Origin: Saccostrea cucullata
Lineage: Eukaryota
Reading direction: 5' to 3'
Assembly: GCF_032062105.1 (NCBI RefSeq)
Contig: NW_026929843.1
Coordinates: forward strand, 1-38,439
DNA length: 38,439 nt
This document shows, one piece after another, positions 245 through 26,626 of the stretch (within the stretch, counting starts at the first letter, position 1; each line of letters opens with the position of its first letter). The notes beneath the pieces are model-generated. The model was not told the DNA's origin. It did not search any database and saw nothing but the letters and a program-made list of their open reading frames with translations. Made by a program: the position numbers and the translations under genes.

Positions 245-3200
245 GTGAGTATTTATAACTTTTAATAAAGTTTTCCCCCTAGAAACTAGTTTCAAAAATC
301 GCCATATAAATAACTTATTATTGATCATCAGAATTTTCAGGAATTTAAATACATAATTATTCAATATTTTTTGGTATTATTTCATTTGTATTACAGTAAC
401 TTATTTAGTATTGGATTTTTATGAAGAGACTTACTTTTAAATGACGGCTGACTTTTACATTTTAAAGGGGCCAACTCCAAACTAAAAAAAATATAGAATA
501 TGAATTTTCTTTATAAAACACATCCAAAATACAAGTATTTAATTAGTATTTCTGTTTTTTTTTGCTGGGATCTGTAAAGTTCTAAGGTAAATACTACAGT
601 ACTTAATATCAATTTTTGTAATTATCAAAATTTTGGGCCAGCAAAAAAACTTTTGATTTTTTTATAATAATTTTAAACAGCTATGTCATTAATTGTAAAA
701 TCTAAAGTGGGTTTATGAAATAGACCCTTGGTTGCCATAGAAACGGGGTGCAAAATTTCAATTTCGTTAATTTTAAAAACGTGTACTTATCAAGAAAAAC
801 TGTGTCCAGAAATGAAAAGGGATAACTTAATATGTTTTCATTATTTAAATTTAATCTAAAATTTAAAAGAAATATATCTGTATTTTTAATTTAATCTTCA
901 ATGGAAAATGGCCTTTTTAAATTTTTAACATATCAGATATGTGATTGGTTTAGTGGAGTTTTTGCAGGCTTAAAACAAAAAAGGACAAAAAATTTAGTAG
1001 TAATTAATTATGAAAGGCTGATATTTGATTATATCAAAATATGTAAAATATTGGTGGGAGACTCAAAGATGTAAAAGGAATTCAAAGGTAAAGATGACTT
1101 TTTTCTACATTTTGAAGCATTTTTTGCTTCCTAATTACTTCCCTTGAACTACTCTTAACGTTTGGAGGTACTATGTGTATAGTAAACAGCAATGAACATT
1201 TTCTGGCGAAAGATCTCATCAAATTTTACAGTCTGGAAGAAGAAAAGAAGGCTAGACATCCTAAACAATAAACAGAAGGTAAATTTATGTATATACTGAG
1301 CATTACAAAAATATCAAGATTAACAAATGCATATTTTCTTAATTTAATTTGCCTTAAAATACACAGTTGTTTTACCGGTAGTGGTCGGGTCCTTATCAAA
1401 TCAAGTGAACTATACCTTTTGACAGTTTGACTTTCTGAACAATGAATTAATTATTTTTAAATAAAAATAAATTTAAAAAGCATATAAACATCACAAGTTT
1501 GCTGATATAGCTGATCCCCCCCCCCCCCCGCGAAATATAAATGTCTATATAGCAGTGTATAGAGATTGTAGAATCTGTCCCATTCAGTAGGTTTACTTTT
1601 TATGATGTGCTGAAAGAGACTTTTAAGTGAACATTATTTATCTTTATAATAAAATTTACTTCTGTCAGTTTTCATTCATTGGTTATCCTATTATTTCAAT
1701 TCTTTATTGGCATTAGGCAATATTTTACAGAATTGTGTTGTTAAAATATTTAACTACTTTTGGTAGCTTTAAATACCTACGTAGCTATTAATACCTACGT
1801 AGGTAGAAATAGTCTTTGGACTGGACCTTTTAAAGACAATAAAGAAAAAGTAAGACCAGTAAACCAAAAAACCAAAAAGGTATGACTAATTTCAAGTGCA
1901 TTCTGCAAGAAAGTGGACAGCCTAGATTTTGTTCTTTTCAAAAACCCATTTTAAAAATGAAAGTAAATTTAGGCAGATGATACAAACAAAAAATGGATAC
2001 CGGATTGGTATATATTTTTTGGCATAATTTAATTGCAAATTAATGATGCTATTAATAAATTTCTAGAATATTAATAAATTGTAAACCTTCTGTGATGTTC
2101 AAAAGTCTGCCCTCTTGAAACTATCCTTATTAGTCTATACAACTATTTTTTACTTAAAATTCCTTTTTTATGCAAATATGATTTAAAAATAAAAAAGACT
2201 TGAAGATAATTTTTAATTTTACTGATTTAAACATGACCTCAGTTGTTATTTTCAAATTCTTTGACAAAAGTTTTTTTTGTCCCGTGGGTATCATCTGTCC
2301 TTAAATTGTTAAAAAATATTTTAGTTTTATATCTAAATTTAAATCTTGCTTTTTTTTTTTTTTTAAACAAAATTTAATACCTGTCCAGTAACAGAAGAAT
2401 TATGATACTAGAAAAAAGAAAACAATTTTTAAAGGATTACATACACATTTAATTAGCTTGAAATCAGTGTATATTGGAAAGTGCAGGAATTATTTACTAT
2501 TGCAGGTTGAGAAGGGATGCCATATTTTAGGTTTGAAACCAGGCAAGTAAAGCTGAATTCCAACCTACTACAACATACTTGTACCCACTGTCTTCAAGAT
2601 ATCAGTGTTTGAGATGTAAAAGTTCAAATATAATAGGAACATGTTTACATTATTATGTGAAGGCATTCAAATCTTATGCTGTTAACAATATGTTTTAGAA
2701 CTTATCATGCTTTATCCTGTACCCTTTCCAAAAAAAATCAACTCAGCATAATTCTCATTAACTAATTATCAGTGTTACTTGCGTATGTCAATGTAGGTCA
2801 TTACTTGTACATGCCTGTCCAACAAAAACTCTAAAATTGAAAAATCAGAGAAAATTTTCAGAGCAGCAGAAACGTGAAATTTTACATAAATATGATGATA
2901 TGTAAAATAGTTAAAAACATGTACTTAAATGTTGCATATATAAAAAATAAAAAAAACGAAAAATTCTCTTGTTTTCAGAATTTATATTTACACGTGAAAA
3001 AAAGAAAACGAGATTGAATAGTTCTGTGAGAGATGTTGGCAAACCTAGTAAAATGAAAGGAAGAACTTCCTTAAAATAACTTTGGGGGAGTGTTTATGGG
3101 GGGGGGGATTGTTTGTTAATTATATGCCAAACACTATGTTTAAAGTTTTCCATTGTTGGAATTTATGTTTAGATCCAAGATAACTTACCCAAGAGGATGT

Positions 3201-4951
3201 GATTTTTTTTATACCAATGAATTTTTCTAAGTTTAAAGCCGTGTTTCATAAGTTTTATAAAAAAAATAAGAAGGGGGGGGGGAAATTTTTGATTTCATTC
3301 AAAGTATCTGTGGTTTGCAGTTGCCAATGAATTTAATAAATAATTATATAAAGTAACAAGTTGAAATGAGTAAAATATTATGAATGTCCTGCTTGTTTTA
3401 GTTTCATTTAATAATTTTTCAAGATTGACCAAATCTTGGAAAAAGTAAAAGCCACAAGGTTTTGCAATTATTTGACATAGCATTACAAAATGCATTATAT
3501 TTTTGCAACATATAGAAAAGCAAAATTTTAAGTGAAAAAATTTAGTTCACATTTACATTTAACTCATTACACAGGTTTTATAAAAGAGTAAATAAGTCTA
3601 GTTTTGGGGAAAATTTTTACTTTAAACGCAGCCATTTTGGTTAAAAATGTGGTTTCCTGTCTCCATGGTAACAAATCTTGCATTCCTGTTTCCATAGTAA
3701 TAGAGAATGGATAGGGGAAAAATTTTTTTTCATATTAGTTTCAATCTAAGGGGGAAATTTCAGGAAACTTGAAACAATCCCTGGTTAGTCTACTGTGATG
3801 TACTTCAAAATTGTCAATTTTACGGAAGGGGGGGGGGGGGGGGGCATTTTGTGCAGGTGTTCACAGTTCTCCTATCTAAAACATAGGAAATGGGATGTGA
3901 ATATTTTTACATGACACTTCTCCTAGATATGGACTAATTTTTCTGTAAATGACATCAAAACAGGTAGAAAGGAAATTTCTTTTCTATATGAACTTAATGT
4001 AATGTGCATATGTTCCTTGAAATAAGGGAAATTTTGCAGATTTTGGTTAATTTTTCATATTTAGCTTTTTAAAAAAAATGTTTAGGTGTCCCATAAATAT
4101 TTTAATGTGTTAAAACTAACTTATGTACCATCTATACAATGCACTGTTTCAAAATCAGTGTGCAAAGTATTAAAAAATCGCTTTGAAAAGGGTCTAAAAT
4201 GGAAATTTTCTCAATTTGGCAAAATGCCAAATCCCCAAAGCTAAGCGTTGTTAAGCCATTATGTAGAATTACAGTTTTTAAAAAATTATGTTGTTATACT
4301 AAAGAGAAATAATGGTAGTTTTGAAACAAAAGTAGATTTTCCCATTCTCTTGTTTCTTTTAAGCTCATTTTTATTCAGTAAAACCTATAAAATCACGTTT
4401 TTTGGTCAAATTTTAGGAAGAATTTACAGGGGAAACAATGATTAGTACCATGGCAACGAGACATTTTTTGAAATAAAAAAATATAAAACCATTAATGATG
4501 TGACAATGTGAGTACACACAAAAAGTTTCATTAAAATTGAAAATGTAGCGTGGCCAAGCATTATTGATATTGTTTGATTATTACAGAATTGATATTAAAA
4601 CGCATACAAACATAAGGATAACTTTACATCGTAGATTTTAAATACGAGCTAGTTTGCTGAAATGCGCTTATGCGAGAATTTTCCAGGTCTAAGTTATTCG
4701 TGCATTTCTCAGCTTTACGTTCTCTTCATTTAACAAAATTACATAAAAAATTCATTTTCAATTATCAATAAATTCATTTGAATGAAAAATCAAAACTAGT
4801 GGTACATTGCATATTTCTTATTCTGAATCACTGACCCCGAGAGCTCTCAAGAGCTTCGGACCTTTTGATTATACGCCTCCTAGTTCGACCGAATTAGCTC
4901 CATAGTTGGTCTTTTTTTTCCTTTCCTCTCTGGTCTACATTCCTCAGATGA

Positions 4952-5179
4952 AGAGGTAAGGGTCATCTTAATGATGCTCAACAGTATTCCCGTCTTCCTG
5001 AAATAGGTGGACCAGAACTACCTTTTCTAGACGAGTGTATTTTACTTGGGGATAAAATATATCCTAACCATCACCCCGTTGTTACCGCATTGACAGAACA
5101 ACAAATAGATAGAAGGACCATTTTTGAAAGAAAAAGGTGTCGAAAAGTAAATCGAATCATTTCAACACATACACTTTAA
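4952..5179 (+). pseudogene. PIF/Harbinger DDE transposase C-terminal fragment (remnant)
   Basis: The frame reads GHLNDAQQYSRLPEIGGPELPFLDECILLGDKIYPNHHPVVTALTEQQIDRRTIFERKRCRKVNRII*. GhLnD...LLGDkiYP...pvvT matches the Harbinger/HARBI1 C-terminus (PGSLQDCAVLQQSSL...SWLLGDSSFFLRTWLMTPL). An in-frame TGA sits immediately upstream at 4949-51 and no N-terminal DDE portion is found, so this is a truncated relic. Confidence 0.45.
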
Positions 5180-5215
5180 AAAATGCGCTTAGAAAATAAA
5201 CACTTCCATTACGTG

Positions 5216-5400
5216 TTTTGACCTTAACATGTATAAGATTGTGTTAAACGGCTAAACACTTAGGTCTAAACGTGTGTTAGATTGTGTTTAACGGCTAAAC
5301 ACTTATGTCTAAACATGTGTTATATCTACATGATGTTAAGATTTCACACATGTTTAGATATAAGTGTTTAGAAATCCGAACACTTTTCTGTGAAGTGCAG
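5216..5400. repeat. Cluster of short direct and inverted repeats (gtctaaacaYgtgt family), including a 46-bp tandem duplication
   Basis: Two tandem 46-bp copies (gattgtgttaaacggctaaacacttaggtctaaacgtgtgtta and its near-duplicate), about 5238-5283 and 5284-5329. They are followed by the palindrome ctaaacatgtg...cacatgtttag. The cluster abuts the Harbinger remnant and may be its subterminal region. Confidence 0.5.
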
Positions 5401-6395
5401 AGTTATCTTCCCGGAAATGACGCATATATATTCGAATGATAAATAGAGCGGTTATCGAAACAAAGGAAATCCAAATATTAGCTAAAGAAGATGGATTAAA
5501 AGAAGTGAATGCTAATCAAAGTGATAACCATGAAGAGATTGTGAAATGCATTTAAACTGCAACATTACTGCGATAAAAGGTATGTTAACTATTATTTTTA
5601 TTTTACATAAATTGACCATGATGGGCAACGTAAACAGGCATGCGTTTGCACATGTAGCTGTAGATCAAGATTACCTTCGGTATATTTTGTATTCCTGAAA
5701 TCTAGAAAGGAGTACATTATATGGAATATCAATAAAATCTATAACAATATCAATACTAAAGAGTGGTTATATAGACGAGGTTCAATAAAAGTAGCACAAT
5801 AATAGCTATCAAACATGTAAAAAAAAAGTTCATACAAATCCAGCCATTGAAAAGCATATTTTGATAAAATTTGAATTTCTTTCTTGTAGGATATGGTCCA
5901 CATCGAACATGAAAGTAATATACACGTATCAGAGAAACTGTTGTCATCTCCAAGTCCACAATGACATGCCAATTATGCCATCGTTCTTACATTTTTCAAC
6001 ACTTCTTACTTTCTAGGGGAAACTGAGTTTTGTGAAGCCTGCTGTTCGTTATAGCTTTGAACAACCTAAAAAAATTCTCAAATGATGACAGTTGATTACT
6101 TACTGACGGTCACCGATGAAAACAAATTATGCGTGTGTTGCTCAGTGAAAAATTGCTGGAAGTTAAACTTGATACAGACATAAGAAATAACTGCTTGCTA
6201 ATCTGGTTAGAATTAAAACCAGCGTGTAAAATTTAATGTACATGTATATTTGATTTAAAATTCTTTATAAAAAATCCATGTTTGAATGTTCATTGAATAA
6301 AATTTAAAATGTAAACAATTGTTATTTTTTCAGTTTTCTTGCAGGAAGACAACGAAAACATCCAAGTGTTGAATTTGTAAACATGTATAACATAA

Positions 6396-6560
6396 CATTT
6401 TTTGTAAAGTGTTTAAAGTCTAAACATGTAAGTGTCTAGGGTCTAAACACTTTCCGTTACACGTAATGAAATAAAATGTGTTTAAAATTTCAACGCATCA
6501 AAAAAAGTGTGACAATAAAGTGCTTAGGAAAGTGTCTATCATCTAAACACATTTTTTTAA
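6396..6560. repeat. Second cluster of the gtctaaaca / tgtttag short-repeat family
   Basis: It contains aagtctaaacatgtaagtg, gggtctaaacactttcc, atcatctaaacacattt and the inverted copies gtgtttaaa. It shares the motif family with 5216-5400, about 1 kb away. Confidence 0.4.
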
Positions 6561-8099
6561 AGTGTAGGTCTATTGTTGAACGATCTATTTGTAGATTAAA
6601 GAGTTATAAAATATTGAGTAGTGTTTGGAGGCAAAAAAAGAAGACAACTTCGCCAAATTGTATTTATTGTTGCATGGTTGGCTACTATAAAAGAGAAATT
6701 TAACATTATTCTTTAATTATTGCCGTAATGTACAAAAGGCTGTATAAAAAACTAACTACCGGTTGGAATACACTTTTTATTTTGATAAGATATTGAGCAT
6801 TACGGGTTATCTAAAGGTTTTTGTAATACAATGTTTAAAACGATAACCCTAAAATGGTTAGTATTTATTGCACTAAATATACACCATACTTCAAATATGG
6901 TTTTTGTTCACTTGTTTGGATATATGCTATCCTGTGCAATTAAAGAATAAAACATTGAGATAAAGCAACAAAAAATAGTTCCTAAAGACAGAGGGTAATA
7001 ATCCATCTTTTGTTTTCTTTTCTGATTTACTTTATAAGTGTGTAGCTATAGTGTGTGTTGAGATTCAATTTAAGTGTTTGGAGTCGGTCCCTTTGAATTG
7101 TAAAAGTCAGTCGTTGATTGTAAAAGTAAGTCTCTTCATAAAACTCCATTACAAACAATTATATATATTTTCAAGTAAAACCCTCACAACTACTTTACCC
7201 TTTTATATCTACATCAATACCCTAAATTATTTGATTAATGTCAGTAATAACAGACCAAATAATTGAACTGGAAATCAATTTGACCGCTGTCGCATAATAT
7301 TTGGTCCGCATTGTTTAAAGCTCCGGCCGGACCTAATACGATAACATATTTGGTCCGCCTGGCTCTATAAGAAAAGGTCCGCCCTCGGCCTTTTAAACAA
7401 ATTGTATGCACGTGGTTCATTCGATATTAATTAAAAACTATTCTTTTAAAATGAATTAAGGATATATAGTCGTATTAATAGGTAGTGTTTCCTCCAAGAA
7501 AATGTAAGAAGCAAAAAGTAAGAAATCGAAATGAATACATTTACATAAATAAAGGAATGTATAGATTTATTGATCGGGTTTCCTGTCGGGATGATGGGAC
7601 ATGCTTCTTTTGTCGTTTAAATTAATAAACTAATGTCAACATTATCATAAAAAATATTAAGAATACAATTGAACATACATTTACCTTCACCTCCTTGTTT
7701 ACTGGCAGATTAATCAGTATTGAATGAACAGATAATGTTCTCAAGTCCAACACGAATCATTTAGTTACAGTTTCTTTCATATAAACATGATAAACATTTG
7801 ACTAATCCACTCACAAAAACTAAAGTTCACATCTTTCAAAATATATTTCTTTATAGTATTAAGAAAAGAAATCTATCATTCTTTACGTTTAATATTGTTG
7901 TAAATAACTGGAGGGTCACTAGCTGTGACAGGGGCTTATTTTACGGTGTACTTCCCTACACCCCTAATTGTAAAAACAACATGCCTACGGACTGGGCAGT
8001 TGATTGTTTCGTTTGAGAAAACCTAAAGTACCATGTTTCTTACCTATTCAAAGGCTAAATTTTTATATCTACTAGATCTCTGCATTTCATTTTCTGAAT

Positions 8100-8250
8100 T
8101 TAACATTGCATTTTCCGACAATTTTTGTAATTTTTTCGGAATCCGACAATTGTTTTTTTCATTTCCGACATTATCTACTAGTATTTCTTTTTCTTTTTTC
8201 ACACTTTCGGATTTTTTAGGATACCTTTCCGGCAATTTAAGTTTAACATA
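8100..8250 (+). repeat. Copy A of a 'ttccgacaat ... ttcgga-tttttt-ag-tacct-tccggcaat' repeat family
   Basis: Direct similarity to 10975-11075. Both carry repeated tccgacaat motifs and end in ttcggattttttaggatacctttccggcaatttaagtttaac, compared with ttccggaattttttataggtacctctccggcaatgtaatgtttacc. Confidence 0.5.
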
Positions 8251-8599
8251 TATATATAAAAAAGATGGAAATTGAATTTTAACAGGGTATTGTATATATG
8301 CATTGTATAATATTATTTATTTCAAATCACGTTTTTTCTAATCATTACATACACTCTGTAATCAATATTAAGACGGGTTAATAAGTATGGAAACAGTGAA
8401 GTGAAACTTCACATTCACAATTCATGTACCTTTATCTGTTCCAGTGCAAAATCAAGTACGTTTCTTTGACAGCTAAGAGCAAAGCCTTTTATTTGAATAA
8501 ATTATCTAAAATATTTTACCTTAATTAAGGATTTTTATAACGGATGTATGACTTCTTTTTTCATTGACGAAAAAAGTACTGAAATGAATTTGACAAATG

Positions 8600-8700
8600 T
8601 GAAAACTTTTAAAATGTAAAAACTTAAAAATGTCGGAAATGAAAAGGACAGAAAATTCCGGAAATGAAATACTACTACTAAATATTACTTCGGGACAAGG
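8600..8700 (-). repeat. Inverted partial copy of the same repeat family
   Basis: tgtcggaaatgaaaa and aattccggaaatgaaat are reverse complements of ttttcatttccgaca and of the tccggaat motif at 8150-8200. Confidence 0.4.
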
Positions 8701-9204
8701 TAAATGTGCATTAATTGGCGAAATCAAACCAAATTAAGTCGATTAATTGCTGGATTTATAAATGCCTTTATTTTTTCATAATTAATATACATGTGGCTCA
8801 TATAAAATCTCTGTGCACTACATTTATGATATATTATATATACTAATGTCTCTCAGTTTCAATGAAAATCCGAACATTTTATACCCCCTCCTTTTTTTTA
8901 ATTATTACATGTGTATTTTTTTCAACTGTAAAAAAAGTTTAAAGTTTTAAAGTATACCGATATTGTACATATAAAGAGCTTGAGTTTAAAGACACAATTT
9001 CAGAAAATAATGAATGCACTTATGGGCCCTGGTAAAATGTGAAAAAATAAGCAAAGTTAGCAAAATTTTCATCTCAAATCATTAATTCATATCCAAACCA
9101 ACGATTCAACAATTTTTTACCATGGAATTCACAAAAAATAAAGAACAAAACCATACAATGTGGTAGGGTCAGCCGACTTTTGTGATTTTCTATTAAATTA
9201 CTAA

Positions 9205-10345
9205 ATCGAGATGCAGTACAGAGGGCGGACCTTTTCTGATAACTGCGTTTTAAGGTCCGCCCTGTCTATTTTTCTAGTTTTCAACCTCCGAAAATAAACC
9301 CTGTCCAAAACTTCTCTTTATGACATGAATATATATGAAATACAAAGGGCGGACCTTTTCTGATAACTGTGTTTTAAGGTCCGCCCTGTCTCTTTCTCTA
9401 GTTTCTAAGCTATACGTAAATAAACCCTGTCCAGAAATTACCCTATAAAAATGAAGAATCTGAAATACAAAGGGCGGACCTTTTCTGATAACTGCGTTTT
9501 AAGGTCCGCCCTGTCTCTTTCTCTAGTTTTTAAGCTATACGAAAATAATCCCTGTCCAGAAATTACCCTATAAAACATGAAGGTATCTGAAATACAGAGG
9601 GCGGACCTTTTCTGATAACTGCGTTTTAAGGTCCGCCCTGTCCCTTTCTCTAAATTTTAAGCTACGAAAATAAACCATCTCCAAAAATTATTATTTTTTT
9701 GATAACATGAGGATATCTGAAATACAAAGGGCGGACCTTTTCTGATAACTGCGTTTTAAGGTCCACCCTGTCTCTTTCTTTAATTTCTAAGCTATACGAA
9801 GATAAATCCTGTCCAAAAATTTCCCTATAAAAAATGAAGATATCAGAAATACAAAGGGCGGACCTTTTCTGATAACTGCGTTTTAAGGTCCGCCTTGTCT
9901 CTTTCTCTAGTTTCTAAGCCATACGAAAATAAACTCTGTCCAGAAATCACCCTATAAAAAAATGAAGATATCTGAAATACGAAGGGAGGACCTTTTCTGA
10001 TAACTGCGTTTTAAGGTCCGCCCTGTCTCCTTCTCTAGTTTTTAAGCTATACGAAAATAAACCCTGTCCAGAAATGTCCCTATAAAACATGAAGGTATCT
10101 GAAATACAAAGGTCGGGCCTTTTCTGATAACTGCGTTTTAAGGTCCGCCCTGTCTATTTTTCTAGTTTTCAACCTCCGAAAATAAACCCTGTCCAAAACT
10201 TCTCTTTATGACATGAATATATCTGAAATACAGAGGGCGGACCTTTTCTGATAACTGCGTTTTAAGGTCCGCCGCCTTGTCTCTTTCTCTAGTTTATAAG
10301 CTACGAAAATAAACCCTGTCCAGAAATTACCCTATAAAACAGGCG
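9205..10345. repeat. Tandem satellite, about 123-bp unit x about 9, each unit with an internal 10-bp inverted repeat
   Basis: Unit ...acaaagggcggaccttttctgataactgcgttttaaggtccgccctgtctctttctctagttt.taagctatacgaaaataaaccctgtccagaaattaccctataaaa.atgaag.tatctgaaat. The unit phase starts about 9219 and is periodic at about 9343, 9466, 9590, 9716, 9843, 9968, 10093 and 10218. gggcggacc...ggtccgccc can form a stem with a 20-nt loop in every unit. Units 1 and 8 share a distinct variant (ttttctagttttcaacctccg...cttctctttatgacatgaatat), hinting at a 7-unit higher-order period. Confidence 0.9.
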
Positions 10346-10974
10346 TGAGATAAATAATTATAAACAACTTTTCGCAGAAACCTTCAAGTCGGTTATAATA
10401 TAACATAATTTTCGGTTATACTAGTAATAGAAAATAATTCATAGTTACTAACACTTAACAGTTCTTGACAAAGGACCAAGCTTCTTCACCAATCGTGGCT
10501 TCTTAACATCTTCACATTCGGAACTCTCTGGATTTCTTTATATAATATGCTGCATTGCCACGAAATTCTATTCTAAACCAGCTCATACAATGCGTCAATC
10601 TGCATCTTTGCCATATTATATAGAGTCTCCCCCCTCTGATGTTTCGGAGGTCCGTGTTTGCTCTGCTCTTATTTTGTATATTTGTTTAATGGACGTTGAG
10701 ATTGAATACTGTTTTTTATTTCCATATCCTTCCTCTCCAGTAAAGGTCATTAATGTTCCGTTGCGCCAAAGCTCCAATAGGTCCACCCCCCCCCCCTCGT
10801 TTATTTACCTATATGTCTATAAAACTCACTTCACAAAACAATTATAACTTGATCACACTCCAGTCTCGGAAAAATTAAATATTCAGCAAAATAAATCAGT
10901 TGAACACGGACTTTCCTTTCTGTGTTTAAAAATTGCTACGGCGCTAGCTCACTTATCTTTTTTATAAGATAAAC

Positions 10975-11075
10975 TTGTTTTATTTCCGACAATTACTCTT
11001 TTTTCCCGACATTTGATTTATCTTTTTTTATTTCCGGAATTTTTTATAGGTACCTCTCCGGCAATGTAATGTTTA
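10975..11075 (+). repeat. Copy B of the tccgacaat/tccggcaat repeat family, flanking the 123-bp satellite on its right
   Basis: See 8100-8250. Together with the inverted copy at 8600-8700 it brackets the tandem array at 9205-10345. Confidence 0.5.
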
Positions 11076-11877
11076 CCGGGTACATGGACGTAGAAAAGGA
11101 ATTTTGAAAAAAAAATTATTAAACACCACAGTTTTAATATAAAAATCTGTATAATACATCTGTACATGAAGCACCAAGTCTATTTAACAGACTACAAATA
11201 ATGAGCATGCAATTTTTTCCTCACATTTAATGTTCGATAAATCAAATGCCAAATACTGCCTTGAACTTATGTCTATAATTTTATTCTTTAAAATTTTCAA
11301 TTACCGAAATTTAAATCAAAATTTGCGTTTTATATATAGATATCAGAGATTTAAAACAATGACCGATTCTTATCGATTCGGAATTTAAATATCAGACACA
11401 GTTTTAATTCAATTAGCTTGAATTTAACTAATAGGGGATATTTAAGTTCAATATCGGTGAAAATTTTAATTTAAATATAAATATCAACTCTCATGTAAAT
11501 ATACGCTTAATCTAGTATTTATAATTTTTAACTCAGATACGCCATATTTAGCTTTAAATTTTCAAATAAAGACTATATGATTATAATTAATATAAATGTC
11601 GCAGTTTTGAAGTGTACGCATGGATATTTTGTTCCTTAGCATGATTTATTAATTCAAGAAATTTAAATCTATTGATATGTAAAGCTAACACATGACCATA
11701 AGGTTCACCGACCATTCAATGACAGCGCCATCTGCCGCGGGCTCTACCTGTGGGTACCTGTCAGGTAAACAAATACGTCACACCCCCATTGTTTTATTAG
11801 CTATACACACCGACAGATTTCACACCTTTAATCGTATTCTAATTCACACAAAGCTAATTCTAGGGAAAACAAACACT

Positions 11878-12446
11878 TATTTATTTCAATAGTGGTCACT
11901 ATTTATGTTTGTTATTGAAATGCACTTTCAACCACTATTGATTATTTCAATAGTGGTCGTATTTCAATAGTGGTTATTACCTATGTTTGAGTAGTGCCCG
12001 TATTTCAATTGTGTTTGAAACCTATGGTTACCATATTGTAATGCACTCTCACCCACTATTGAAATAATTATTTCAATAGTGGTCGTATTTCAATAGTGGT
12101 CACTATTTATGGTTGTTATTGAAATGCACTCTCAACCACTATTGATATCATTATTTCAATAGTGGTCGTATTACGATTAATATTGGTTATTACCTATGTT
12201 TGTTATTGAAATGCACTCTCAACCACTATTGATATAATTATTTCAATAGTGGTCGTATTTCAATAGTGGTAACTAACTATGTTTGCTATTGAAATGCACT
12301 CTCAACCACTATTGACATAATTATTTCAATCGTGGTCGTATTTCAATAGTGGTTACTAACGATGTTTCTTATTGAAATGCACTCCTAACCACTATTTATA
12401 TAATTGTTTCAATAGTGGTCGTCATTTCAATAGTGGTTGCAACATT
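11878..12446. repeat. Tandem satellite, about 88-bp unit x about 6.5
   Basis: Unit is about atttcaatagtggtcgt atttcaatagtggttactaac tatgtttg.tattgaaatgcactctcaaccactattga.ataatt. Each unit holds two direct atttcaatagtggt copies and one inverted accactattgaaat. Confidence 0.85.
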
Positions 12447-12899
12447 GCAATCTTGTTGTGTATTAATGAGAAATATTAAAACTTTTATCCAGAAAAATAA
12501 TTTTATTCAGAATAGAAAAGTTAGAAACAAACTCCTTCTGGATTTTCTGGATTATAGTATTCAATGACATATTTTTCATTTTTACACAATGAAATTGCTA
12601 CTTTTCCAAAGGATTAAGAATAGAATTCATTTGTGAAAGAGCAAGGATGTGTTTATCAAACCCGCCAAAAAATTTGAAATTTTAATATCTTTTATATGAA
12701 ATAAGATTTTTAATTAATGTTTGTGTGAAATGCTATTAAAATATATAAGTCGTCATATTATAGAGAAAACAATAACTTCAAATCTGTGTCAATTACCTTT
12801 AAAATATGTACAAAATAATAAAATGCAAATTACTTTTTAATGAATATTCACAAACATTTTCATTTATTATAATAATTTAGTATTATTACATTAAACCCA

Positions 12900-13230
12900 T
12901 GAATACATCTTAAATATTAACGAGATCTTCTATGACTTCGAAATACACATTTATAATACCTGTCAACTTATCAACAATACATTAACAAATATACTTTTAT
13001 GACTTCGAACTTTGCAATAATAATAATGTCCAATAATAATAATGTCAACGTGTCGACCTGTCAGCCAGATATAAAACAAATATATTTATCAACAAATGCA
13101 CTTCAATGACTTCGAACTTCACAGTAATATTGATGTCAACAGTTCTACTTGTCAACCTGTCAACCAAACAGACATTGTAGCATGTTTTTGAACAAATGTT
13201 CTTCTATGACTTCAAAATACACATTCATAT
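12900..13230. repeat. Degenerate tandem repeat (about 80-100-bp units) with core cttctatgacttcgaa.t.cac
   Basis: The core recurs four times, at about 12928, 12995, 13098 and 13198, with diverged spacers. Confidence 0.4.
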
Positions 13231-13339
13231 AATAAGGTCAGATTTGTAGTATTCAAATACGATAATATAAAACAAGAACGTAGACAGTGCATGTATATAA
13301 TGCACAAATATTTAAAATTCCAAAGAATCTGGGGGATTA

Positions 13340-14354
13340 GGCGAGTCATATGCCCACAAGGATTTTCTCGCTTTGTAAGCATATCGAACATTTCATAGTC
13401 GTACGATTAACCTTAACATTTAAACTTTGTACAGCAATGTCCAAATGACAATATCTATATTTCTTTAAATCTTGAGGTTATCGTGACATTATTTTAACAT
13501 ATGTGATCTTTTCATACTGCGTGTTAATTGTTATATCAAATATGTTTTCAGGCGTTAGGAGATGATTATACATTTCTTGTTAACTGTTTTTGTATACAGT
13601 ACAGTCATATCGTTCCGGTATACCAATGGTTGTTTTCATTTCAATTGTGTAATACCGGTGTAGTCTTGAACTAAATGCATTCAAATTGTTATATACATGT
13701 ATCTCGAAAACTTGTTTATTATGGGAAATATATTAATGGACTATATATAAATTCATTATCTTATTTATTCATTTTGTTTTATTGAAAAAAATATATGTAT
13801 CTATAAATTTCAACCTAAACTTAAAAAAGCTGTGGTCCGAATACTCGCGACAAGTGATGCGTGCTTCAGCACCGCCGCTATGACCAGTGAGCTACGAAGT
13901 CTCAGATACGTTGCTCTTTAAATTACAAACAGTTCTATATGTATAGCAACCCCCTAATTATACTTGGAGTTTTTGAGAATATGTTCCGAAATTTAAATAG
14001 GTAAACTAACTTTTTCATATAGAGTGGGTCTTCTTACCTTTTTTTTTAAATGAAGAGAGATACATCCTCCCATACCCTTTCAATATTTGTATACAAAAAT
14101 TGGTACAAAGACCCACTCTATATGAAAATACAAATTTAACATTCAATTTCTAATATTTTTACGGTTACTAAAGCGTGTTACCATTTTGGTGGGTTAATTA
14201 AAATCAATTTCTAAGTCATTTGATTCAGGTTTTATCATAACTGTATATACAGTCGAATATGGTTATAAATAAATCCCAAATTTAACAAAAGCGAAATTTA
14301 TCAGAATTTCTAAATTAATATTTTTTCTGCCCTTGCCTAGGCATATGACTCGCC
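13340..14354. mobile_element. Non-autonomous PIF/Harbinger-type (Tourist-like) element with about 24-bp TIRs and a TTA target-site duplication
   Basis: Left end gggggaTTA|ggcgagtcatatgcccacaagg. Right end ccttgcctaggcatatgactcgcc|TTAaaccc. The TIR is GGCGAGTCATATGCC.A..AAGG with 2 mismatches, flanked by TTA at 13337-39 and 14355-57. No ORF lies inside. It contains a nested 21-bp perfect hairpin. It ends 145 bp upstream of the Roc exon. Confidence 0.5.
14014..14129. repeat. Perfect 21-bp inverted repeat (ttttcatatagagtgggtctt / aagacccactctatatgaaaa) with about 75-nt spacer
   Basis: An exact reverse-complement pair read directly from the sequence. It lies inside the Harbinger-type element. 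Confidence 0.6.
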
Positions 14355-14499
14355 TTAAACCCAAAATTCATTTGAAACGTTATAAATTAAAGTTGAATAT
14401 TTGAAGTTTTATTAAGATAGTACTTTATATTTCGTTAATAAGAGTTATTTTTCATCATTGATGAGTAAATTAATTGTGTTCATTATTTGCATCATTTAG

Positions 14500-14751
14500 T
14501 AAATATACCCAAAGAAGTATTAAGTTGGGATATCCATGCTAGAGAAAGGTTTGTGAAGAACTCCAAGCTAGGAAGCGTACAAATGTTTCGCGCCAGAGGC
14601 ATGATAGTTGGATGTGCAGGTGCCGGAAAAACAACTCTTTTACGAAAACTTCACGGAAGAGGTATAACAGATGAAGATGAACCAACTGAGACAACTATCG
14701 GCCTTGAGGTTCATGAAGATTTGTTTGCTATTAAGGAAAACAAGTTAACAG
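14500..14751 (+). CDS. ROCO-family Roc GTPase, coding exon with P-loop (G1) and G2 Thr
   Basis: The ORF-track frame translates to ...FRARGMIVGCAGAGKTTLLRKLHGRGITDEDEPTETTIGLEVHEDLFAIKENKLT. GxxxxGKTTLL followed by T-I/V-G is the Roc/Ras G1-G2 pattern, as in LRRK2 MIVGNTGSGKTTLL...TVGIDV. The acceptor is tttgcatcatttag|TA at 14498-99; an alternative AG lies at 14513-14. An in-frame ATG at 14583 (MFRARGMIVG...) is a plausible translation start. The donor is AACAG|GTGATA at 14752, leaving a 1-nt overhang. Confidence 0.6.
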
Positions 14752-15246: not shown

Positions 15247-16771
15247 TTTTTCAAACAGTGTATATGCTATGTTTTAGAGTATATACTTATTTAATCAAAC
15301 TGAAGTTCGAGTTTCTAATCCTTTTGATTAATTCCGCTTATGTTTCTCATTTGTTGAAAAGTTCCAATATCAGGATAGGTATGGTGAATTTCTTAGAAAA
15401 TTGTTCAGCATGTTTAAAACTAATGTATACACAGTAAAAAGATGACTACATTAAATATAGCAAAAGCATTGCATTTAAACACCATGAAGGTTATCAAGGT
15501 ATTGGATTGCTAATGTACATGTAATTATAATGTTAAAGATATATATGCCGTATTAGTGTTTTATTGCTAAAGAAATAAATATATGTGGTGTCTCATCAAG
15601 TTACATAAGTTATGTAATTTCTGCAATTAAGACAATTCCACTCCATCACTTTTAAAAGTTATGAAATATTATTTTGTAAAAATTATTTTCTCTCCGAATC
15701 GGATATTAAACCGCCTCTTATTGAAATATTCATGAACACGTGGTCTCGCATGCTCACAGCAAACAATGGTCCAATCTCGTGAATGAGCCGAAAAGCATGA
15801 TGGTCTACTACGTTTTTACTACAAACACGTGGGTTAGGGAATTGTACGATGCGATTTAAAATGACGGCTGGAAAGCCAATTTACATTTTTTTAAAAACCT
15901 GTTTTAGAAAAAAAGGAAGAATAGTTACTAATTGAGAATTCCCATGCTCACATTAACAAACAAATGCAGTTTTTCTTGTTAGCATACTGTATGTTTCGAG
16001 GTTGTACACATTGTAAACATTGTCAATACGTGAACACACCTCAGAGTTAGTAGCTTTTTGTACCGAGGAATATATAGTTACGTGCAATTGTCTTTTCATT
16101 GTCAGTAGAGCACGGGGAAATTGTAAACAAACGGACCTGTACAATAGAGTGGGGAAACTCTTATTTTTATCATTGTTCATTTGTATGCAAATGTTAGGAT
16201 GGGATTTGTAGATGATAATGTACATAATGCATTAAGCGTGTAAATACTTGGGAAATGCTCCACGTCTTTCTGAGAGCGATTTAAAAAACTAGCCTGTTCG
16301 AAAAACACATGTAGTATTTATGTACCGAGTAGTAACCCATAAATGCATTAAATACAACTCATTGAGCTGATTGGTCGATTTATCAGTCTTGTTGGTTCCT
16401 CGCTGAACAGACGTCACAAAAAATAGTCTCCTCGACCTGATGATTCTCGTGATACTTTTCCCGCGCACATGCGCAGATCCAACATAAACGTCAGGCCTTT
16501 ATAAATATGTATGAGAATATCGTGTTCTTTTCCCAACCAGTACTTTGTTAATAACGAATAATATTTCGTCGAATTTGCGAGAATGCTTCATTTTTGATAG
16601 CTTATCATACTTCAGAAATTTCTGTTTGGTTTCAGCTGTGCAAAAATACTGTTTAACACGGCATACATATCTTTAAGTTTTATGAAATATTTAGCAAAGA
16701 TTTTTGTCAGGAATTCTCTTTTAGTTTTATATTACCCGGTAATTAATAAGTTTATCTTCGTACTCGAACAG

Positions 16772-17005
16772 ATTTTGCGAATGCTGACAACAGTAGAAAT
16801 CCATACCTTGACAACAACGTAATAAGCATGACAGACTTTGCAGGACAAGTGGCGTACTACGCATGTCACCAGGTTTACCTGTCAAGAAGAGCATTTTATA
16901 TCGTAGTTATTGACATGTCCAAAAAGCTTGATGAAGAATGTCGATTGTATGACACAGATCGTCATGATCCAACAGGATCCTTATTTCATTCATGGACTTA
17001 CGGAG
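16772..17005 (+). CDS. ROCO Roc GTPase exon with switch II / G3 (DFAGQ)
   Basis: Translation ...MTDFAGQVAYYACHQVYLSRRAFYIVVIDMSKKLDEECRLYDTDRHDPTGSLFHSWTYG matches the Roc G3 region (LRRK2 [31 protein letters not shown]). The phase suits a 1-nt overhang from exon 1. The acceptor cgtactcgaacag|AT at 16770-71 has the better pyrimidine tract. The alternative in-frame acceptor catgacag|AC at 16833-34 (exon start 16835) removes 21 aa. The donor GGAG|GTGAAT is at 17006. Confidence 0.5.
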
Positions 17006-20968: not shown

Positions 20969-21570
20969 TATATTTCCATTTCATTGTAAAATAAAATTGT
21001 AGATTTAGATTTTAAAAATGTAGACATATATATTTAAATTACACAAGAACTCCCATGCCAATTTTAACAGTCCTCGACAACTGACGTCAAAAACAAAGGC
21101 AGCCGTACGAGATTCACATGCATATCAGGCCTCCTTAGCGTTGAACACAGATGCGCACAAAATTTGAATGCATATCAGGCCTCTTTAGCTCCTGACCTAT
21201 CGACCTGCCTAATTTACATCCCGGTAGAATTATCAAGATATCAACTCCGCTAACTTTCAAAGAGTTATCACAGAGAATAAAATTAAAATGGAAATATATT
21301 ATTATCACTGTATGATTTATTTCTAACATTAAATTTTATTCTTGTCCATTACAAAATAACATATTCTTGTGATTATGCTGTATTTGTGTTCAAGTAAATG
21401 GTAACAAGCAAATTATTATTATTATTATGATTAATCACAGTCCCTGGTGATTTTTTCATATCAACCTACTAAGGGAAAATAACTTTATAAATATTTTTTT
21501 AAAAAATAAAAATATTCATATTAAATTCATTTCGAGTTGATATAAATATTGCCATGTATATTATCTGTAG

Positions 21571-21722
21571 AATACTTCCATTTTTGGCTGCAAACTGTAA
21601 ATACATATTGCAATGATGGAACAACACAGGAGAATCCTAAAGACACAACAGCAATCAAAAACTCCACGACGAATTTCAATATTCCCCCGATAATTCTTAT
21701 TGCCTCCCATAAAGATCAGATG
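21571..21722 (+). CDS. ROCO Roc GTPase exon with G4 motif (HKDQ)
   Basis: The acceptor ttatctgtag|AA at 21569-70 completes the split codon as G+AA = E. Translation EYFHFWLQTVNTYCNDGTTQENPKDTTAIKNSTTNFNIPPIILIASHKDQM aligns with LRRK2 PWLFNIKARASSSPVILVGTHLD. The donor ATG|GTAAGA at 21723 is consensus and phase 0. Confidence 0.6.
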
Positions 21723-21883
21723 GTAAGAACAAATTCCACCCTGTGTTCGTTTTCAAACTGTTCAAGTATGCAGATTTATTTGCTTTGAACCAACTTGATG
21801 TTGGAAACCTCATTTGCAGCTGATAAATGTATATTACAACAAAAATAAGAAATTCAAACCTGATGATAGAAAGTTTGTTACCT

Positions 21884-21911
21884 TTTTTTAGGTCACCTGA
21901 GTAAACTCAGG
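21884..21911. repeat. Perfect palindrome aggtcacctgagtaaactcaggtgacct (11-bp arms, 6-nt spacer)
   Basis: Read directly from the sequence. The motif ctcaggtgacctat recurs at 26613-26626. Confidence 0.6.
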
Positions 21912-22012
21912 TGACCTATTGCTATCTGTTTTCGTCCGTCGTCGTGCATTGTCCGTCGTCCGTCGTGCGTTAACATTTGAACATTTTCAGCTTCTTCTCT
22001 GCAACCACTGAA

Positions 22013-22039
<27 letters not shown>

Positions 22040-22043
<4 letters not shown>

Positions 22044-22670
22044 TCTGGGTAAAGGGGAACAAAAAATTGTGAATTTCTTGGTCCCTGTTGCCCTGGGGCC
22101 TGAGGGATGGGGCCAAAACTACTAAAATTAATGCAATCTTTAAAAATCTTCTTCTTTACTCCTGTACATCAAGCAGTCAAACTGTTTGCATGATTGTAAT
22201 CAGCAATGAGTTCTCTACCAAAATTGTGAAATTCATGGCCCCAGGGTCATGGGTTCTAGTGCTAGGGCTTGGCTAAATAAGTAGGTAGTAAAAATGCAAT
22301 ATTTCTTTGAAAATCTTCTTCTCTGTTGCTAGGTATTAAATAAACCAACTAAATACATAGTTATGATGAGCAAGAGTGCCTCTACCAAAATTGTGAAATT
22401 CATGGCCCTAGGGTCAGGGGTTCTGATGTTAGGGCGGGGCTCTATTGATTATATAGTGAAAATACATGACTTCTTTGAAAATCTTCTCTGCTCCTGGGTC
22501 ATAAATAAACTAACTAAGTACATAGTTATGATGGGCAAGAGTGCCTCTACCAAAATTGTGAATTTTATGGCCCCAGGGTCAGGGGTTCTTGTTTTAGGGT
22601 GGGGCTCTAATATATAATGAAATGCATGTATTCTTTGAACATCTTATCCTTTGCTCCTGGTTAATAAACT
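22040..22670. repeat. Tandem satellite, about 166-bp unit x about 3.7
   Basis: Full units lie at about 22205-22370 and 22371-22536. A truncated unit follows at 22537-22670 and a diverged copy precedes at 22040-22204. The core is gagtgcctctaccaaaattgtgaaattcatggccc.agggtcaggggttct...cttctttgaaaatcttct.tgctcctgg...aaataaac.aactaa.tacatagttatgatg.gcaa. The ORF-track ORFs at 22088-22617 are artefacts of this repeat. Confidence 0.8.
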
Positions 22671-23151
22671 AATGATCTAATTACATATTTAAGGGCAGGA
22701 TTTATTTTATTTTCAGTTTTACAAATCCTCCGCTCAAGGTTTTGAATTTTCAGAATAAAAAAAATTAAAAAAATTTCTCTCCGATGTCAAATTTGAGTCG
22801 GGATCTAGATTTAAAATTTACGAACTCGCACTTCCGGTTTTAAGATAAAACGGCGGGTAAATAAAGCTAGATCTAAGAAGATAGTTTGGGTTAGTGTAAA
22901 AATCATCTATATGAGTGCCATTCAAAACGTTTCACCCGTTCAAAGGACAAATAAAATGCTGATGACTTTGTTGCACAATGACATGCTGGTGAGATAATTA
23001 TAGATTCGTTTCAAAAGTATCTGTCTGTTAATTATTTTCGTCCCCCAGGTTTTCAACTGCCTGTGGTAGCTATTGCATATTGCCAGCGACATTGTTTAGG
23101 TCTCTGTTATAGCTCACAGTCTAAGCATCATTCTTCAGAAAAGGGTTGCTT

Positions 23152-25803: not shown

Positions 25804-26439
25804 TGTATCAGATGTAATGAATAAAACTATGGGAGAAGTTTAGTCCATTTGAGGAAGAAATAAACAATAACCTGAAGAAATAAAAAACAAATTCAACTAT
25901 TAAAAGGCAAGGATATACAAATATATACAGGCATGTAGTATCATTTGTATAAGCCAGAAAATTATTTTACACTTAACTTAATTGAAAAAATGTTCACCCT
26001 ACTCCCCAATACTCCCTATCTGTTTTATGATAGAAATTATGATTTTAGGCAACATGTTAATTTTAGAACAATGTCAGTATACATTTACCTAACACATATT
26101 TAAAAAATGAAGATATATTGAAAGGCTTTTAAAGAATTGATTTTTTAAAATATATTTTGACCAACATCACAAAATTTATATAACTGACCCAAACTGGCAG
26201 ATGATGAAATAAGCAATTAAATGTTCTACTTTCCTATTTGTAAGCATTATGTGTCCAGTGGTAAGGAGCCTATTTGTATAGCATAAAAAAAGAACGTACA
26301 AATGCTAATAATTGATTTATCAAAAAAATTTTATTTCCTTCTCCTTCGGAACTTTTTTTATTCTCATTTCATAACTAAACTTAAACATTAAAAAATGCTG
26401 GCCTTATAATGAAGAAAGGGGCCTCTTTCAAAATAGATA

Positions 26440-26626
26440 ATTTCAGGGCCGCTGGGTCAGGGGTACCCGGGGGGTACTTTGACTAAAATACATTAATGCT
26501 TTGAAATCTGCCCTTTGATAAGCAATGGTGCCTTCTTCAAAATTTGTGAATTTCATGGCTTTGGATTAAAACACGAACCAAATACAATCGCTGGAAAGTT
26601 GTTACATGATACTCAGGTGACCTATA
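26440..26626. repeat. Diverged copy of the 166-bp satellite unit ending in the ctcaggtgacctat motif
   Basis: ttcagggccgctgggtcaggggtac...ctttgaaatctgccctttgataagcaatggtgccttcttcaaaatttgtgaatttcatggc parallels the unit at 22371-22536. It is followed by atactcaggtgacctataagg, matching 21897-21910. Confidence 0.45.

What the first reader, a model, noticed from the sequence alone, without database searches (positions are those of the whole stretch)
8100..11075. 123-bp satellite array bracketed by copies of one repeat family, a candidate composite (satellite-bearing) transposon
The about 9-unit array at 9205-10345 lies between copies of the tccgacaat/tccggcaat repeat: copy A direct at 8100-8250, an inverted partial copy at 8600-8700, and copy B direct at 10975-11075. 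Every satellite unit holds the gggcggacc...ggtccgccc stem-loop, and ggtccgcc motifs also occur at 7290-7390. Bivalve genomes are known to have TIR elements that carry internal tandem repeats (pearl-like elements), and satellites can be born from such elements. Units 1 and 8 share a variant, which suggests a 7-unit higher-order duplication.
Basis: partly seen in the sequence, partly recalled or inferred. Interest (0 to 1): 0.55.

Follow-up and report, generated by a model that had tools for sequence, protein, structure and literature searches.

The report
Hairpin-bearing 127-bp tandem repeat in oyster intron
This is a short tandem array of nine ~127-bp hairpin-containing units in the first intron of a rock-oyster (Saccostrea) gene, an ordinary kind of dispersed, probably transposon-derived "mini-satellite" in oyster genomes; nothing I could test shows it is a composite transposon.

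Summary
Nine head-to-tail units of 124-130 bp (TRF period 127, not 123) span 9197-10345. Each unit folds into the same 12-bp-stem hairpin. GGTCCGCC relics lie at 7325-7394. The flanking repeat ("F") is real: copies A and B align far above a genomic null, and A and C share an exact 16-bp inverted repeat.

The window is Saccostrea oyster DNA, and the array lies in the 14-kb intron 1 of a pats1-like Roc-COR gene.

The composite-transposon reading found no support. Candidate TSDs occur at chance frequency, there are no terminal structures, and A and B are only about 70% alike and lie 950 and 630 bp from the array. No second copy of the monomer or of F turned up in about 139 kb of S. echinata DNA or in the public scans. 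A textbook HINE elsewhere in the window (21884-26645) shows what a satellite-carrying oyster element looks like, and this array lacks those hallmarks.

Each hairpin is followed 10 nt later by CTAG plus T, the layout of a Helitron-type 3' end, and the hairpin is five times better conserved than the rest of the unit.

Best reading: a decayed array derived from the Helitron superfamily. The 7-unit higher-order repeat is not supported. This is a new member of a known kind, of low interest.

The parts
9197..10345 (+). Tandem array: nine units of 124-130 bp (starts 9210, 9334, 9459, 9586, 9716, 9843, 9971, 10098, 10222) plus a degenerate partial unit at its left edge. GC is 38% against about 31% for the window.
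   Evidence: TRF; unit alignment; self-BLAST; nhmmer E 1e-36 to 1e-43 per unit; identity matrix; composition.
9222..9263 (+). Hairpin of unit 1, as the example: AGGGCGGACCTT, 18-nt loop TTCTGATAACTGCGTTTT, AAGGTCCGCCCT. The same hairpin lies at 9346-9387, 9471-9512, 9598-9639, 9728-9769, 9855-9896, 9983-10024, 10110-10151 and 10234-10278.
   Evidence: Folding of all nine units. The hairpin departs from consensus in 2.6% of cells against 13.4% in the rest of the unit, Fisher p = 4e-10; variable columns 9/45 against 54/91, p = 2e-5.
9274..9278 (+). CTAG plus T, 10 nt after the hairpin of unit 1. The same CTAG lies at 9398, 9523, 9907, 10035, 10162 and 10289. Unit 4 has CTAA at 9650 and unit 5 has TTAA.
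   Evidence: The chance that CTRR plus T starts 9-13 nt after a random position in this window is 1.8%, and for CTAG it is 0.9%. The canonical Helitron 3' end is a palindrome about 11 bp from CTRR (PMC4067079). The C. gigas Helitron Box 5 ends palindrome, 7 nt, CTAGT (PMC8268682 Table S3).
7325..7394 (.). Monomer-related relic 1.8 kb upstream. It holds a diverged hairpin CGGACC, 18 nt containing GATAAC, GGTCCGCC (7330-7359). It also holds a 21-nt stretch at 7366-7386 that is 95% complementary to the start of the monomers (GAGGGCGGACCTTTTCTGATA).
   Evidence: I18, I21-I23; nhmmer minus-strand hit E 0.005; folding z -4.3 on both strands.
8100..8250 (+). Flanking repeat F, copy A: a T-rich block with 3-4 TTTCCGRCAWT motifs. 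Its end lies 950 bp left of the array.
8590..8700 (-). Flanking repeat F, copy C, inverted. With A it forms a foldback with arms 8151-8207 and 8595-8651. It overlaps a 17-bp repeat of 2.4 copies (8595-8633) and is followed by (TAC)3 at 8671-8680.
   Evidence: I19: 22 nt, 91% complementary; exact 16-mer; score 23.0 against a null maximum of 19.5; TRF.
10965..11085 (+). Flanking repeat F, copy B, direct with respect to A. It lies 630 bp right of the array.

Best explanation
The array is a short, old, non-coding satDNA-like tandem repeat of the dispersed type that fills oyster genomes. It sits in intron 1 of a Saccostrea Roc-COR (pats1-like) gene, on the gene's strand. Its unit is built around a conserved hairpin (12-bp stem, 18-nt loop) followed 10 nt later by CTAG and a run of T. 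This is the layout of the 3' terminus that rolling-circle (Helitron/Helentron) transposases recognise for termination. I infer that the unit derives from the terminal or central-repeat module of a non-autonomous Helitron-superfamily element. I further infer that it was multiplied by rolling-circle read-through and/or unequal exchange, then decayed in place to about 16% divergence, with later patchy conversion (units 1/8 and 3/7). The hairpin relic at 7325-7394 is a leftover of the same family. The F copies (A, C, B) are a genuine but separate local repeat: A and C form a foldback, and B is a solo copy. Shown: the anatomy, the hairpin conservation, the intronic position and the oyster host. Inferred: the Helitron ancestry and the mode of expansion. 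No host function is implied.
For: Host and position. Best protein hits are Saccostrea, at 85-98% identity. Exons lie at about 3-219, 14499-14750, 16768-17004, 21570-21752 and 28147-29481, so the array is in intron 1.

Array and hairpins.

Hairpin conservation. The hairpin, loop included, is five times better conserved than the rest of the unit. This points to a sequence-specific constraint during amplification.

CTAG plus T. It lies 10 nt after the palindrome in 7 of 9 units, with CTAA in an eighth. The chance expectation is 1-2%. This matches the canonical Helitron 3' end (PMC4067079) and the end of C. gigas Helitron Box 5.

Literature prior. Most oyster satDNA-like arrays are central repeats of Helitron/Helentron non-autonomous elements. 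About 25% of arrays are 'intermediate' and 5-10% 'standalone' because they have lost their boxes (PMC7492417; PMC8268682; PMC11136912).

Other points. A genuine HINE lies 11 kb away in the same gene, so the superfamily has been active here. No ORF, tRNA or Rfam family lies in the region.
Against: No Helitron or HINE terminal box flanks the array. None of the five C. gigas boxes is present within 2 kb. No subTIR pair rises above chance. No GC-containing palindrome follows the array. There is no GTCY microsatellite.

The array does not end at a CTAG. The palindrome spans 42 nt, longer than the canonical 16-20 nt.

The CTAG coincidence was noticed after the fact.

No second genomic copy was found, so neither mobility nor family membership is demonstrated. 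The 8-mers of the stem are absent from the C. gigas satellitome and Cg_HINE supplements.
Confidence: 0.45

Rival explanations
1. The array is a purely local tandem duplication (a standalone intronic minisatellite or satDNA-like array) with no transposon ancestry. Slippage or unequal crossing-over of a 127-bp segment that happened to hold a palindrome built it, and the palindrome may have favoured the slippage.
For: There are no terminal boxes, TIRs or TSDs. No other copy exists in any sequence I could search. The window holds several other unrelated small arrays.
Against: The hairpin, loop included, is five times better conserved than the rest of the unit. CTAG plus T sits at the Helitron distance. 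A related hairpin relic, partly in inverted orientation, lies 1.8 kb away. TE-unrelated satDNAs are scarce in oysters (PMC11136912).
Confidence: 0.27
2. The array is the cargo of a HINE/pearl-like element whose inverted ends are F copy C (left, minus) and F copy B (right, plus). The layout would be: left flank 8629-8669, (TAC)3 microsatellite, a 520-bp spacer, the array, 630 bp, then a right flank at 10978-11043 holding the TTCCGGAA palindrome.
For: C and B are in inverted orientation and bracket the array. The B against rc(C) score is 20.5, equal to the best of 1240 null tiles. The order of modules mimics Cg_HINE: inverted motif, microsatellite, variable spacer, repeats, inverted motif plus palindrome. 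All F copies cluster within 3 kb of the array, with none in the other 35 kb of the window or in 139 kb of S. echinata DNA.
Against: The motif order in C and B is not collinear for a true inverted duplication. There are no T-runs at the putative termini. The right flank is 630 bp from the last repeat, not adjacent to it. The TTCCGGAA palindrome has no loop. TSD and empty-site evidence is unavailable. A pairs with C better than B does.
Confidence: 0.1
3. One reading: a composite transposon in which direct copies A and B of one mobile element mobilise the array between them.
For: A and B are truly related and lie in direct orientation on either side of the array.
Against: A and B are only about 70% identical over about 100 nt, and neither has termini of its own. 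Candidate TSDs occur at chance level. C lies inside the bracket and forms a foldback with A. No such architecture is described for pearl/HINE elements.
Confidence: 0.05
4. The array is made of tandemised miniature inverted-repeat units. Read in the other phase, each unit is a 109-bp segment with perfect 12-bp terminal inverted repeats (AAGGTCCGCCCT ... AGGGCGGACCTT), and units are separated by an 18-bp spacer.
For: The 12-bp inverted repeats are perfect in four units. The oyster satellitome paper cites tandemisation of whole TEs or parts of them as a source of satDNA (PMC11136912).
Against: The 18-nt 'spacer' is the most conserved part of the unit, which is not expected of target DNA lying between insertions. 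There are no TSDs between units. No solo unit exists in the window.
Confidence: 0.06
5. The structure is a non-autonomous LTR-type element (TRIM/LARD) with A and B as terminal direct repeats and the array as its internal domain.
For: A and B are direct repeats of about 100 bp bracketing 2.7 kb. TRIMs exist in bivalves (PMC6934838, listed).
Against: Reading searches shows no primer-binding site after A, no polypurine tract before B, and no 5-bp TSD above chance. The 70% identity would require a very old insertion.
Confidence: 0.03

Closest known systems
Cg_HINE / pearl (CvA, CvE, CvG) elements of oysters: non-autonomous Helentrons carrying short satDNA-like central repeats (PMC7492417; PMC11136912)
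   Same: The host is an oyster. The array is short (9 units) with monomers over 100 bp, and it is dispersed and intronic. The repeats contain a segment of reduced variability. The orientation is uniform.
   Different: The monomer is 127 bp, against the usual 140-180 bp. There is no subTIR/IR hairpin, no GTCY microsatellite, no right-flank palindrome directly after the last repeat, and none of the C. gigas boxes 1-5. All of these are present in the control HINE at 21884-26645 in the same window.
Canonical Helitron 3' terminus (palindrome about 11 bp upstream of CTRR, inserted before T) and tandem arrays generated by rolling-circle read-through (PMC4067079; discussion in PMC8268682)
   Same: Each unit has a GC-rich palindrome, then 10 nt, then CTAG, then T. 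Iterated end-modules are a described by-product of rolling-circle transposition.
   Different: The palindrome spans 42 nt with an 18-nt loop, against 16-20 nt in the canonical case. No 5' TC end, A|T target or autonomous partner can be identified. The array does not terminate at a CTAG.
Cg170/HindIII satDNA (CgiSat01, OYS1), the commonest oyster satellite
   Same: It is the same class of object, a TE-linked satDNA-like repeat. A relative of it is present in this very window at 22213-22645, and in S. echinata L001.
   Different: The sequences are unrelated. The 127-bp monomer shares no stem 8-mer with any of the 52 C. gigas satDNA consensus sequences or with the CL arrays held as text.
Composite or macro-transposons bracketed by two copies of one element (IS-type composites; foldback-bracketed elements in Drosophila). 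This comparison is from general knowledge, not tested here.
   Same: Related repeat copies lie on both sides of a cargo.
   Different: The bracketing copies are short, degenerate motif clusters with no ends of their own. There is no TSD and no evidence of mobility.

Membership tests
HINE / non-autonomous Helentron (includes pearl) | Short internal array of satDNA-like tandem repeats in a single orientation | tested here: met
   Nine units of 124-130 bp, all on the + strand.
HINE / non-autonomous Helentron (includes pearl) | Complementary 11-15-bp subterminal inverted repeats near both ends | tested here: inconclusive
   A scan of 7000-9215 against 10330-11300 gave only AT-rich or F-motif matches, at about the number I estimated for chance from the base composition. 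The one strong inverted match pairs 7366-7386 with the monomers themselves (21 nt, 95%). With a single copy the ends cannot be defined.
HINE / non-autonomous Helentron (includes pearl) | Left flank: an IR complementary to the 5' subTIR within 1-22 bp, followed by a microsatellite (GTCY in many Cg_HINEs) | tested here: not met
   No hairpin with a stem of at least 7 bp and GC of at least 3 lies in 6500-9215, apart from an unrelated one at 8396. There is no GTCY run. The control at 21884-21970 has both features.
HINE / non-autonomous Helentron (includes pearl) | Right flank: a 3' subTIR plus palindrome within about 60 bp after the last repeat, then a T-run | tested here: not met
   No palindrome was found in 10330-11500. 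The control right flank at 26612-26650 has CTCAGGTGACCT, 4 nt, GGCCCGTGGGCC, TCTTG, TTTT.
HINE / non-autonomous Helentron (includes pearl) | Known oyster Helitron conserved boxes within 2 kb of the array (the operational test of PMC8268682 and PMC11136912) | tested here: not met
   Boxes 1-5 gave only 8-10-mer chance hits near the array. The positive controls are Box 3 at 21981-22043 (E 2e-17) and Box 2 at 26628-26645. The boxes come from C. gigas families, so boxes specific to a Saccostrea family could have been missed.
HINE / non-autonomous Helentron (includes pearl) | Insertion at TT without a TSD, shown by paralogous or orthologous empty sites; many dispersed copies | not testable with these tools
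   No tool here searches a Saccostrea assembly as DNA. Four S. echinata loci (about 139 kb) hold no copy. The S. echinata relative of the host gene (L001, exons 82-87% identical) has a 3.4-kb intron 1 with no similarity to this one.
Canonical Helitron terminus | Palindrome about 11 bp upstream of a 3' CTRR, followed by host T | tested here: met
   CTAG plus T starts 10 nt after the stem in 7 units, and CTAA in one more. The chance expectation is 1-2%. Caveat: the palindrome is longer than the canonical one and the match was noticed after the fact.
Canonical Helitron terminus | 5' TC end, A|T target, and an autonomous Rep/helicase partner with the same ends | not testable with these tools
   There is no coding remnant in 268-14480 and no genome to search.
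   The F copies are motif clusters of 100-150 bp, and A and B are about 70% alike. Candidate TSDs number 12 against about 13 expected by chance.
Classical satellite DNA | Long homogeneous arrays (tens of kb or more), typically heterochromatic | tested here: not met
   This copy is 1.15 kb, lies in an intron, and has 83.5% mean unit identity. Other loci are unknown.
Higher-order repeat (7-mer) | Units i and i+7 more alike than neighbouring units, for every i | tested here: not met
   Units 1 and 8 are 94.4% identical, but units 2 and 9 are 86.7%, no better than unit 2 against units 3, 5 or 6. The best pair is units 3 and 7 at lag 4.

The most novel reading that the evidence does not exclude
The units are iterated, still sequence-constrained rolling-circle termination modules (hairpin, 10 nt, CTAG/T) from a Saccostrea-specific Helitron/Helentron lineage that has not been described. 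On this reading, the inverted relic at 7366-7386 and the F blocks mark the remains of the carrier. The locus would then be a caught-in-the-act example of a satellite born from a transposon's 3' end rather than from its usual central repeats.
Probability: 0.12. Interest if true: 0.4.

Novelty: new member of a known kind. Interest (0 to 1): 0.15.

Why it matters
Very little, beyond annotation. The locus adds one more family to the large and well-documented set of TE-linked satDNA-like repeats in oysters; this family is not in the C. gigas satellitome. If the Helitron-terminus reading were confirmed genome-wide, it would give a clean example of tandem repeats arising from the termination signal of a rolling-circle transposon. 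It would also give a marker family for Saccostrea repeat annotation. No effect on the host Roc-COR gene is indicated.

Tried and rejected
1. Exact-pattern scans of metagenome contigs and genome contigs with the 32-nt hairpin found nothing.

2. A looser stem-loop pattern returned 27 metagenome and 17 genome contigs (0 viral). Most are GC-rich, those with titles are bacterial, and they match the stem only. They are irrelevant.

3. I translated the recurrent 35-47-aa minus-strand pseudo-ORFs of the array and searched 5.8 billion proteins, hoping to fish out other copies from run-level assemblies. The only hit was one chance match (E = 3) in a compact, gene-dense contig that looks bacterial or phage-like.

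4. I tried to fetch Saccostrea DNA through homologues of the host gene. S. cucullata proteins are not on record. Four S. echinata loci were read, and none holds the monomer or F.

5. k-mer look-ups in the C. gigas satellitome and Cg_HINE supplements found no stem 8-mer. Cg_HINE Table S2, which lists the subTIRs, is illegible in the stored text.

6. The TTTTCTGAT match between Helitron Box 1 and the hairpin loop was rejected: the same 10-mer occurs at four unrelated places in the window (E = 1).

7. A resemblance between the F motif and the sequence upstream of the hairpin was rejected as chance: 18 hits against 10.6 expected, and all hits outside the array have 3 mismatches.

8. A weak monomer-like nhmmer hit at 30395-30441 is chance. 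It has no stem motif.

9. Rfam and tRNA scans found nothing. The hairpin is too short for a miRNA precursor.

10. The TSD search is uninformative because the boundaries are fuzzy.
Full report
**What is there**

TRF finds one strong array at 9217-10341: period 127, 8.9 copies, 85% matches, score 1585. Anchoring on the invariant 23-mer GGGCGGACCTTTTCTGATAACTG gives nine units starting at 9210, 9334, 9459, 9586, 9716, 9843, 9971, 10098 and 10222. Their lengths are 124-130 bp. Self-BLAST shows a degenerate partial unit from about 9188-9197. The unit length is about 127 bp, not 123.

Every unit folds as DNA into the same hairpin: AGGGCGGACCTT, an 18-nt loop, AAGGTCCGCCCT. The stem is perfect in units 1-4 and has one or two non-compensated defects in units 5-9. 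Free energy runs from -13.5 to -6.2 kcal/mol. GGTCCGCC occurs 17 times in the window against 0.08 expected. Fifteen occurrences are in the array and two are at 7352 and 7376.

**The upstream relic**

Region 7325-7394 holds a diverged copy of the hairpin: CGGACC, 18 nt containing GATAAC, GGTCCGCC. It also holds a 21-nt stretch at 7366-7386 that is 95% complementary to the start of the monomers (I18; nhmmer minus-strand E 0.005; folding z -4.3). Family-related sequence therefore exists 1.8 kb upstream, at least partly inverted.

**The flanking family F**

- A against B aligns with score 33.5. The maximum over 1240 tiles of the window is 19.5, and T-rich tiles average 12.4 with sd 2.1. Identity is only about 70% over about 100 nt.
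- A and the inverted copy C share an exact 16-mer (8157-8172 on the + strand, 8629-8644 on the - strand) within a 22-nt, 91% inverted repeat (I19). Together they form a foldback with arms at 8151-8207 and 8595-8651.
- F is itself a cluster of TTTCCGRCAWT motifs spaced about 22-28 nt apart.
- A profile built from A, B and C finds no other copy in the window or in S. echinata DNA.

The family is real, and it is local to this 3-kb neighbourhood.

**Higher-order structure**

Units 1 and 8 are 94.4% identical against a mean of 83.5%. Units 2 and 9 are only 86.7% identical. The best pair overall is units 3 and 7 (95.3%, lag 4). This pattern indicates patchy exchange or conversion, not a 7-unit higher-order repeat.

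**Context**

The 424-aa ORF at 28192-29466 is 85-98% identical to Saccostrea cucullata Roc-COR ("pats1-like") proteins. tblastn places exons at about 3-219, 14499-14750, 16768-17004, 21570-21752 and 28147-29481. The array therefore lies in the 14-kb intron 1, on the gene's strand. The related S. echinata locus (L001, exons 82-87% identical) has a 3.4-kb intron 1 with no similarity to this one. The region contains no ORF longer than 85 aa, no tRNA and no Rfam family.

**An internal positive control**

The same gene carries a textbook HINE.
- At 21878 there is a T-run, then AGGTCACCTGAG, taaa, CTCAGGTGACCT (5' subTIR plus IR), then a (GTCC/GTCG)n microsatellite.
- Next comes a 90% match to C. 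gigas Helitron Box 3, then 165-bp Cg170-like repeats.
- At 26612-26650 lies the matching 3' subTIR CTCAGGTGACCT, the palindrome GGCCCGTGGGCC, then TCTTG and TTTT.

The box sequences come from PMC8268682 Table S3, and the architecture from PMC7492417 and PMC4067079. This is what a satellite-carrying oyster element looks like.

**Testing the interpretation**

Pearl elements have been reclassified as non-autonomous Helentrons (PMC7492417). Around the 127-bp array I find none of the following:
- a subTIR pair above chance;
- a left-flank hairpin or GTCY microsatellite;
- a palindrome after the last repeat;
- any of Boxes 1-5 within 2 kb.

Candidate TSDs around every plausible boundary pair are as frequent as at random positions: 12 found against about 13 expected. 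A and B are direct, degenerate, and lie 950 and 630 bp from the array. A pairs better with C than with B. Nothing testable supports a composite transposon.

The alternative in which inverted C and B act as the ends of a HINE-like element mimics the module order (inverted motif, (TAC)3, spacer, repeats, inverted motif plus TTCCGGAA). It fails on collinearity, on the T-run termini, and on adjacency of the right flank to the array.

**What speaks for a transposon origin**

1. The hairpin, including its loop, departs from the consensus in 2.6% of cells against 13.4% in the rest of the unit (p = 4e-10). By columns, 9 of 45 are variable against 54 of 91 (p = 2e-5). This is a sequence-level constraint. 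It is not structural covariation, because stem defects are not compensated.
2. Ten nt after the stem comes CTAG plus T in seven units, and CTAA in an eighth. The chance of CTRR plus T at that distance is 1.8%. This is the canonical Helitron 3' layout, and it mirrors the end of C. gigas Box 5: palindrome, 7 nt, CTAGT.
3. In oysters most such arrays are Helitron/Helentron cargo, and a quarter to a third have lost one or both boxes.

Against this, the coincidence was spotted after the fact, the palindrome is longer than the canonical one, the array does not end at a CTAG, and no second copy was found.

**Search for other copies**

- Exact scans with the hairpin found nothing in metagenome or prokaryote collections.
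- A looser stem-loop pattern returned only contigs that match the stem alone; most are GC-rich, and those with titles are bacterial.
- A pseudo-ORF search of 5.8 billion proteins gave one chance hit.
- About 139 kb of S. echinata DNA has no monomer and no F.
- The stem 8-mers are absent from the C. gigas satellitome and Cg_HINE supplementary sequences.

**Verdict**

The object is an ordinary oyster satDNA-like array.

| Reading | Probability |
|---|---|
| Decayed array derived from the Helitron superfamily | about 0.45 |
| Purely local tandem duplication | about 0.27 |
| HINE-like element with C and B as inverted ends | about 0.10 |
| Tandemised miniature inverted-repeat units | about 0.06 |
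| TRIM/LARD-type element | about 0.03 |

Novelty: a new member of a known kind. Interest is low.

Noticed in passing
window 21878-26650: A complete HINE of the Helitron-N2_CGi type. It has perfect 12-bp subTIRs (AGGTCACCTGAG at 21884 and CTCAGGTGACCT at 26612), an IR, a (GTCC/GTCG)n microsatellite, a Box 3 match (21981-22043, 90%), 165-bp Cg170-like repeats (22213-22645; remnants at 26404-26560), and a right-flank palindrome GGCCCGTGGGCC followed by TCTTGTTTT. The 4.8-kb span suggests one or more nested insertions between 22700 and 26400. S. echinata L001 has a homologous, longer array at 12063-13479.
   Followed up: partly
window 11863-12438: A second intronic tandem array: 83-bp period, about 5-7 units, 88% matches. 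Each unit contains a near-perfect palindrome ACCACTATTGA(TATAATTAT)TTCAATAGTGGT plus a duplicated TATTTCAATAGTGGT. It lies 0.8 kb right of F copy B. Like the 127-bp unit, each monomer carries a hairpin.
   Followed up: no
window 14022-14118: An inverted pair of GAAGACCCACTC (14022-14033 on the - strand, 14108-14118 on the + strand). It matches the subTIR core of C. gigas Helitron Box 5 (ACGGAAGACCCACTC). It is possibly a tiny Box4/5-type HINE remnant just upstream of exon 2.
   Followed up: no
window 10628-10712 and L048 10286-10366: An 87-nt stretch right of the array is 80% identical, in inverted orientation, to a site in an unrelated S. echinata locus. A fragment of some dispersed repeat therefore lies between the array and F copy B.
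   Followed up: no
window 7076-7250 versus 315-482: A 176-nt inverted match at 70% identity between the region just upstream of the hairpin relic and the start of intron 1. This is another old dispersed repeat.
   Followed up: no
window 3-29481: The window carries most of one pats1-like Roc-COR (ROCO) GTPase gene from a large Saccostrea-expanded family, with dozens of S. cucullata paralogues at 30-98% identity. Its intron 1 is 14 kb, against 3.4 kb in the related S. echinata locus L001. The excess is repeat-rich.
   Followed up: partly
window 5226-5322 and 8595-8633: Two further small tandem repeats: 43 bp x 2.3 copies, and 17 bp x 2.4 copies. The 17-bp repeat overlaps the inverted F copy C.
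   Followed up: no
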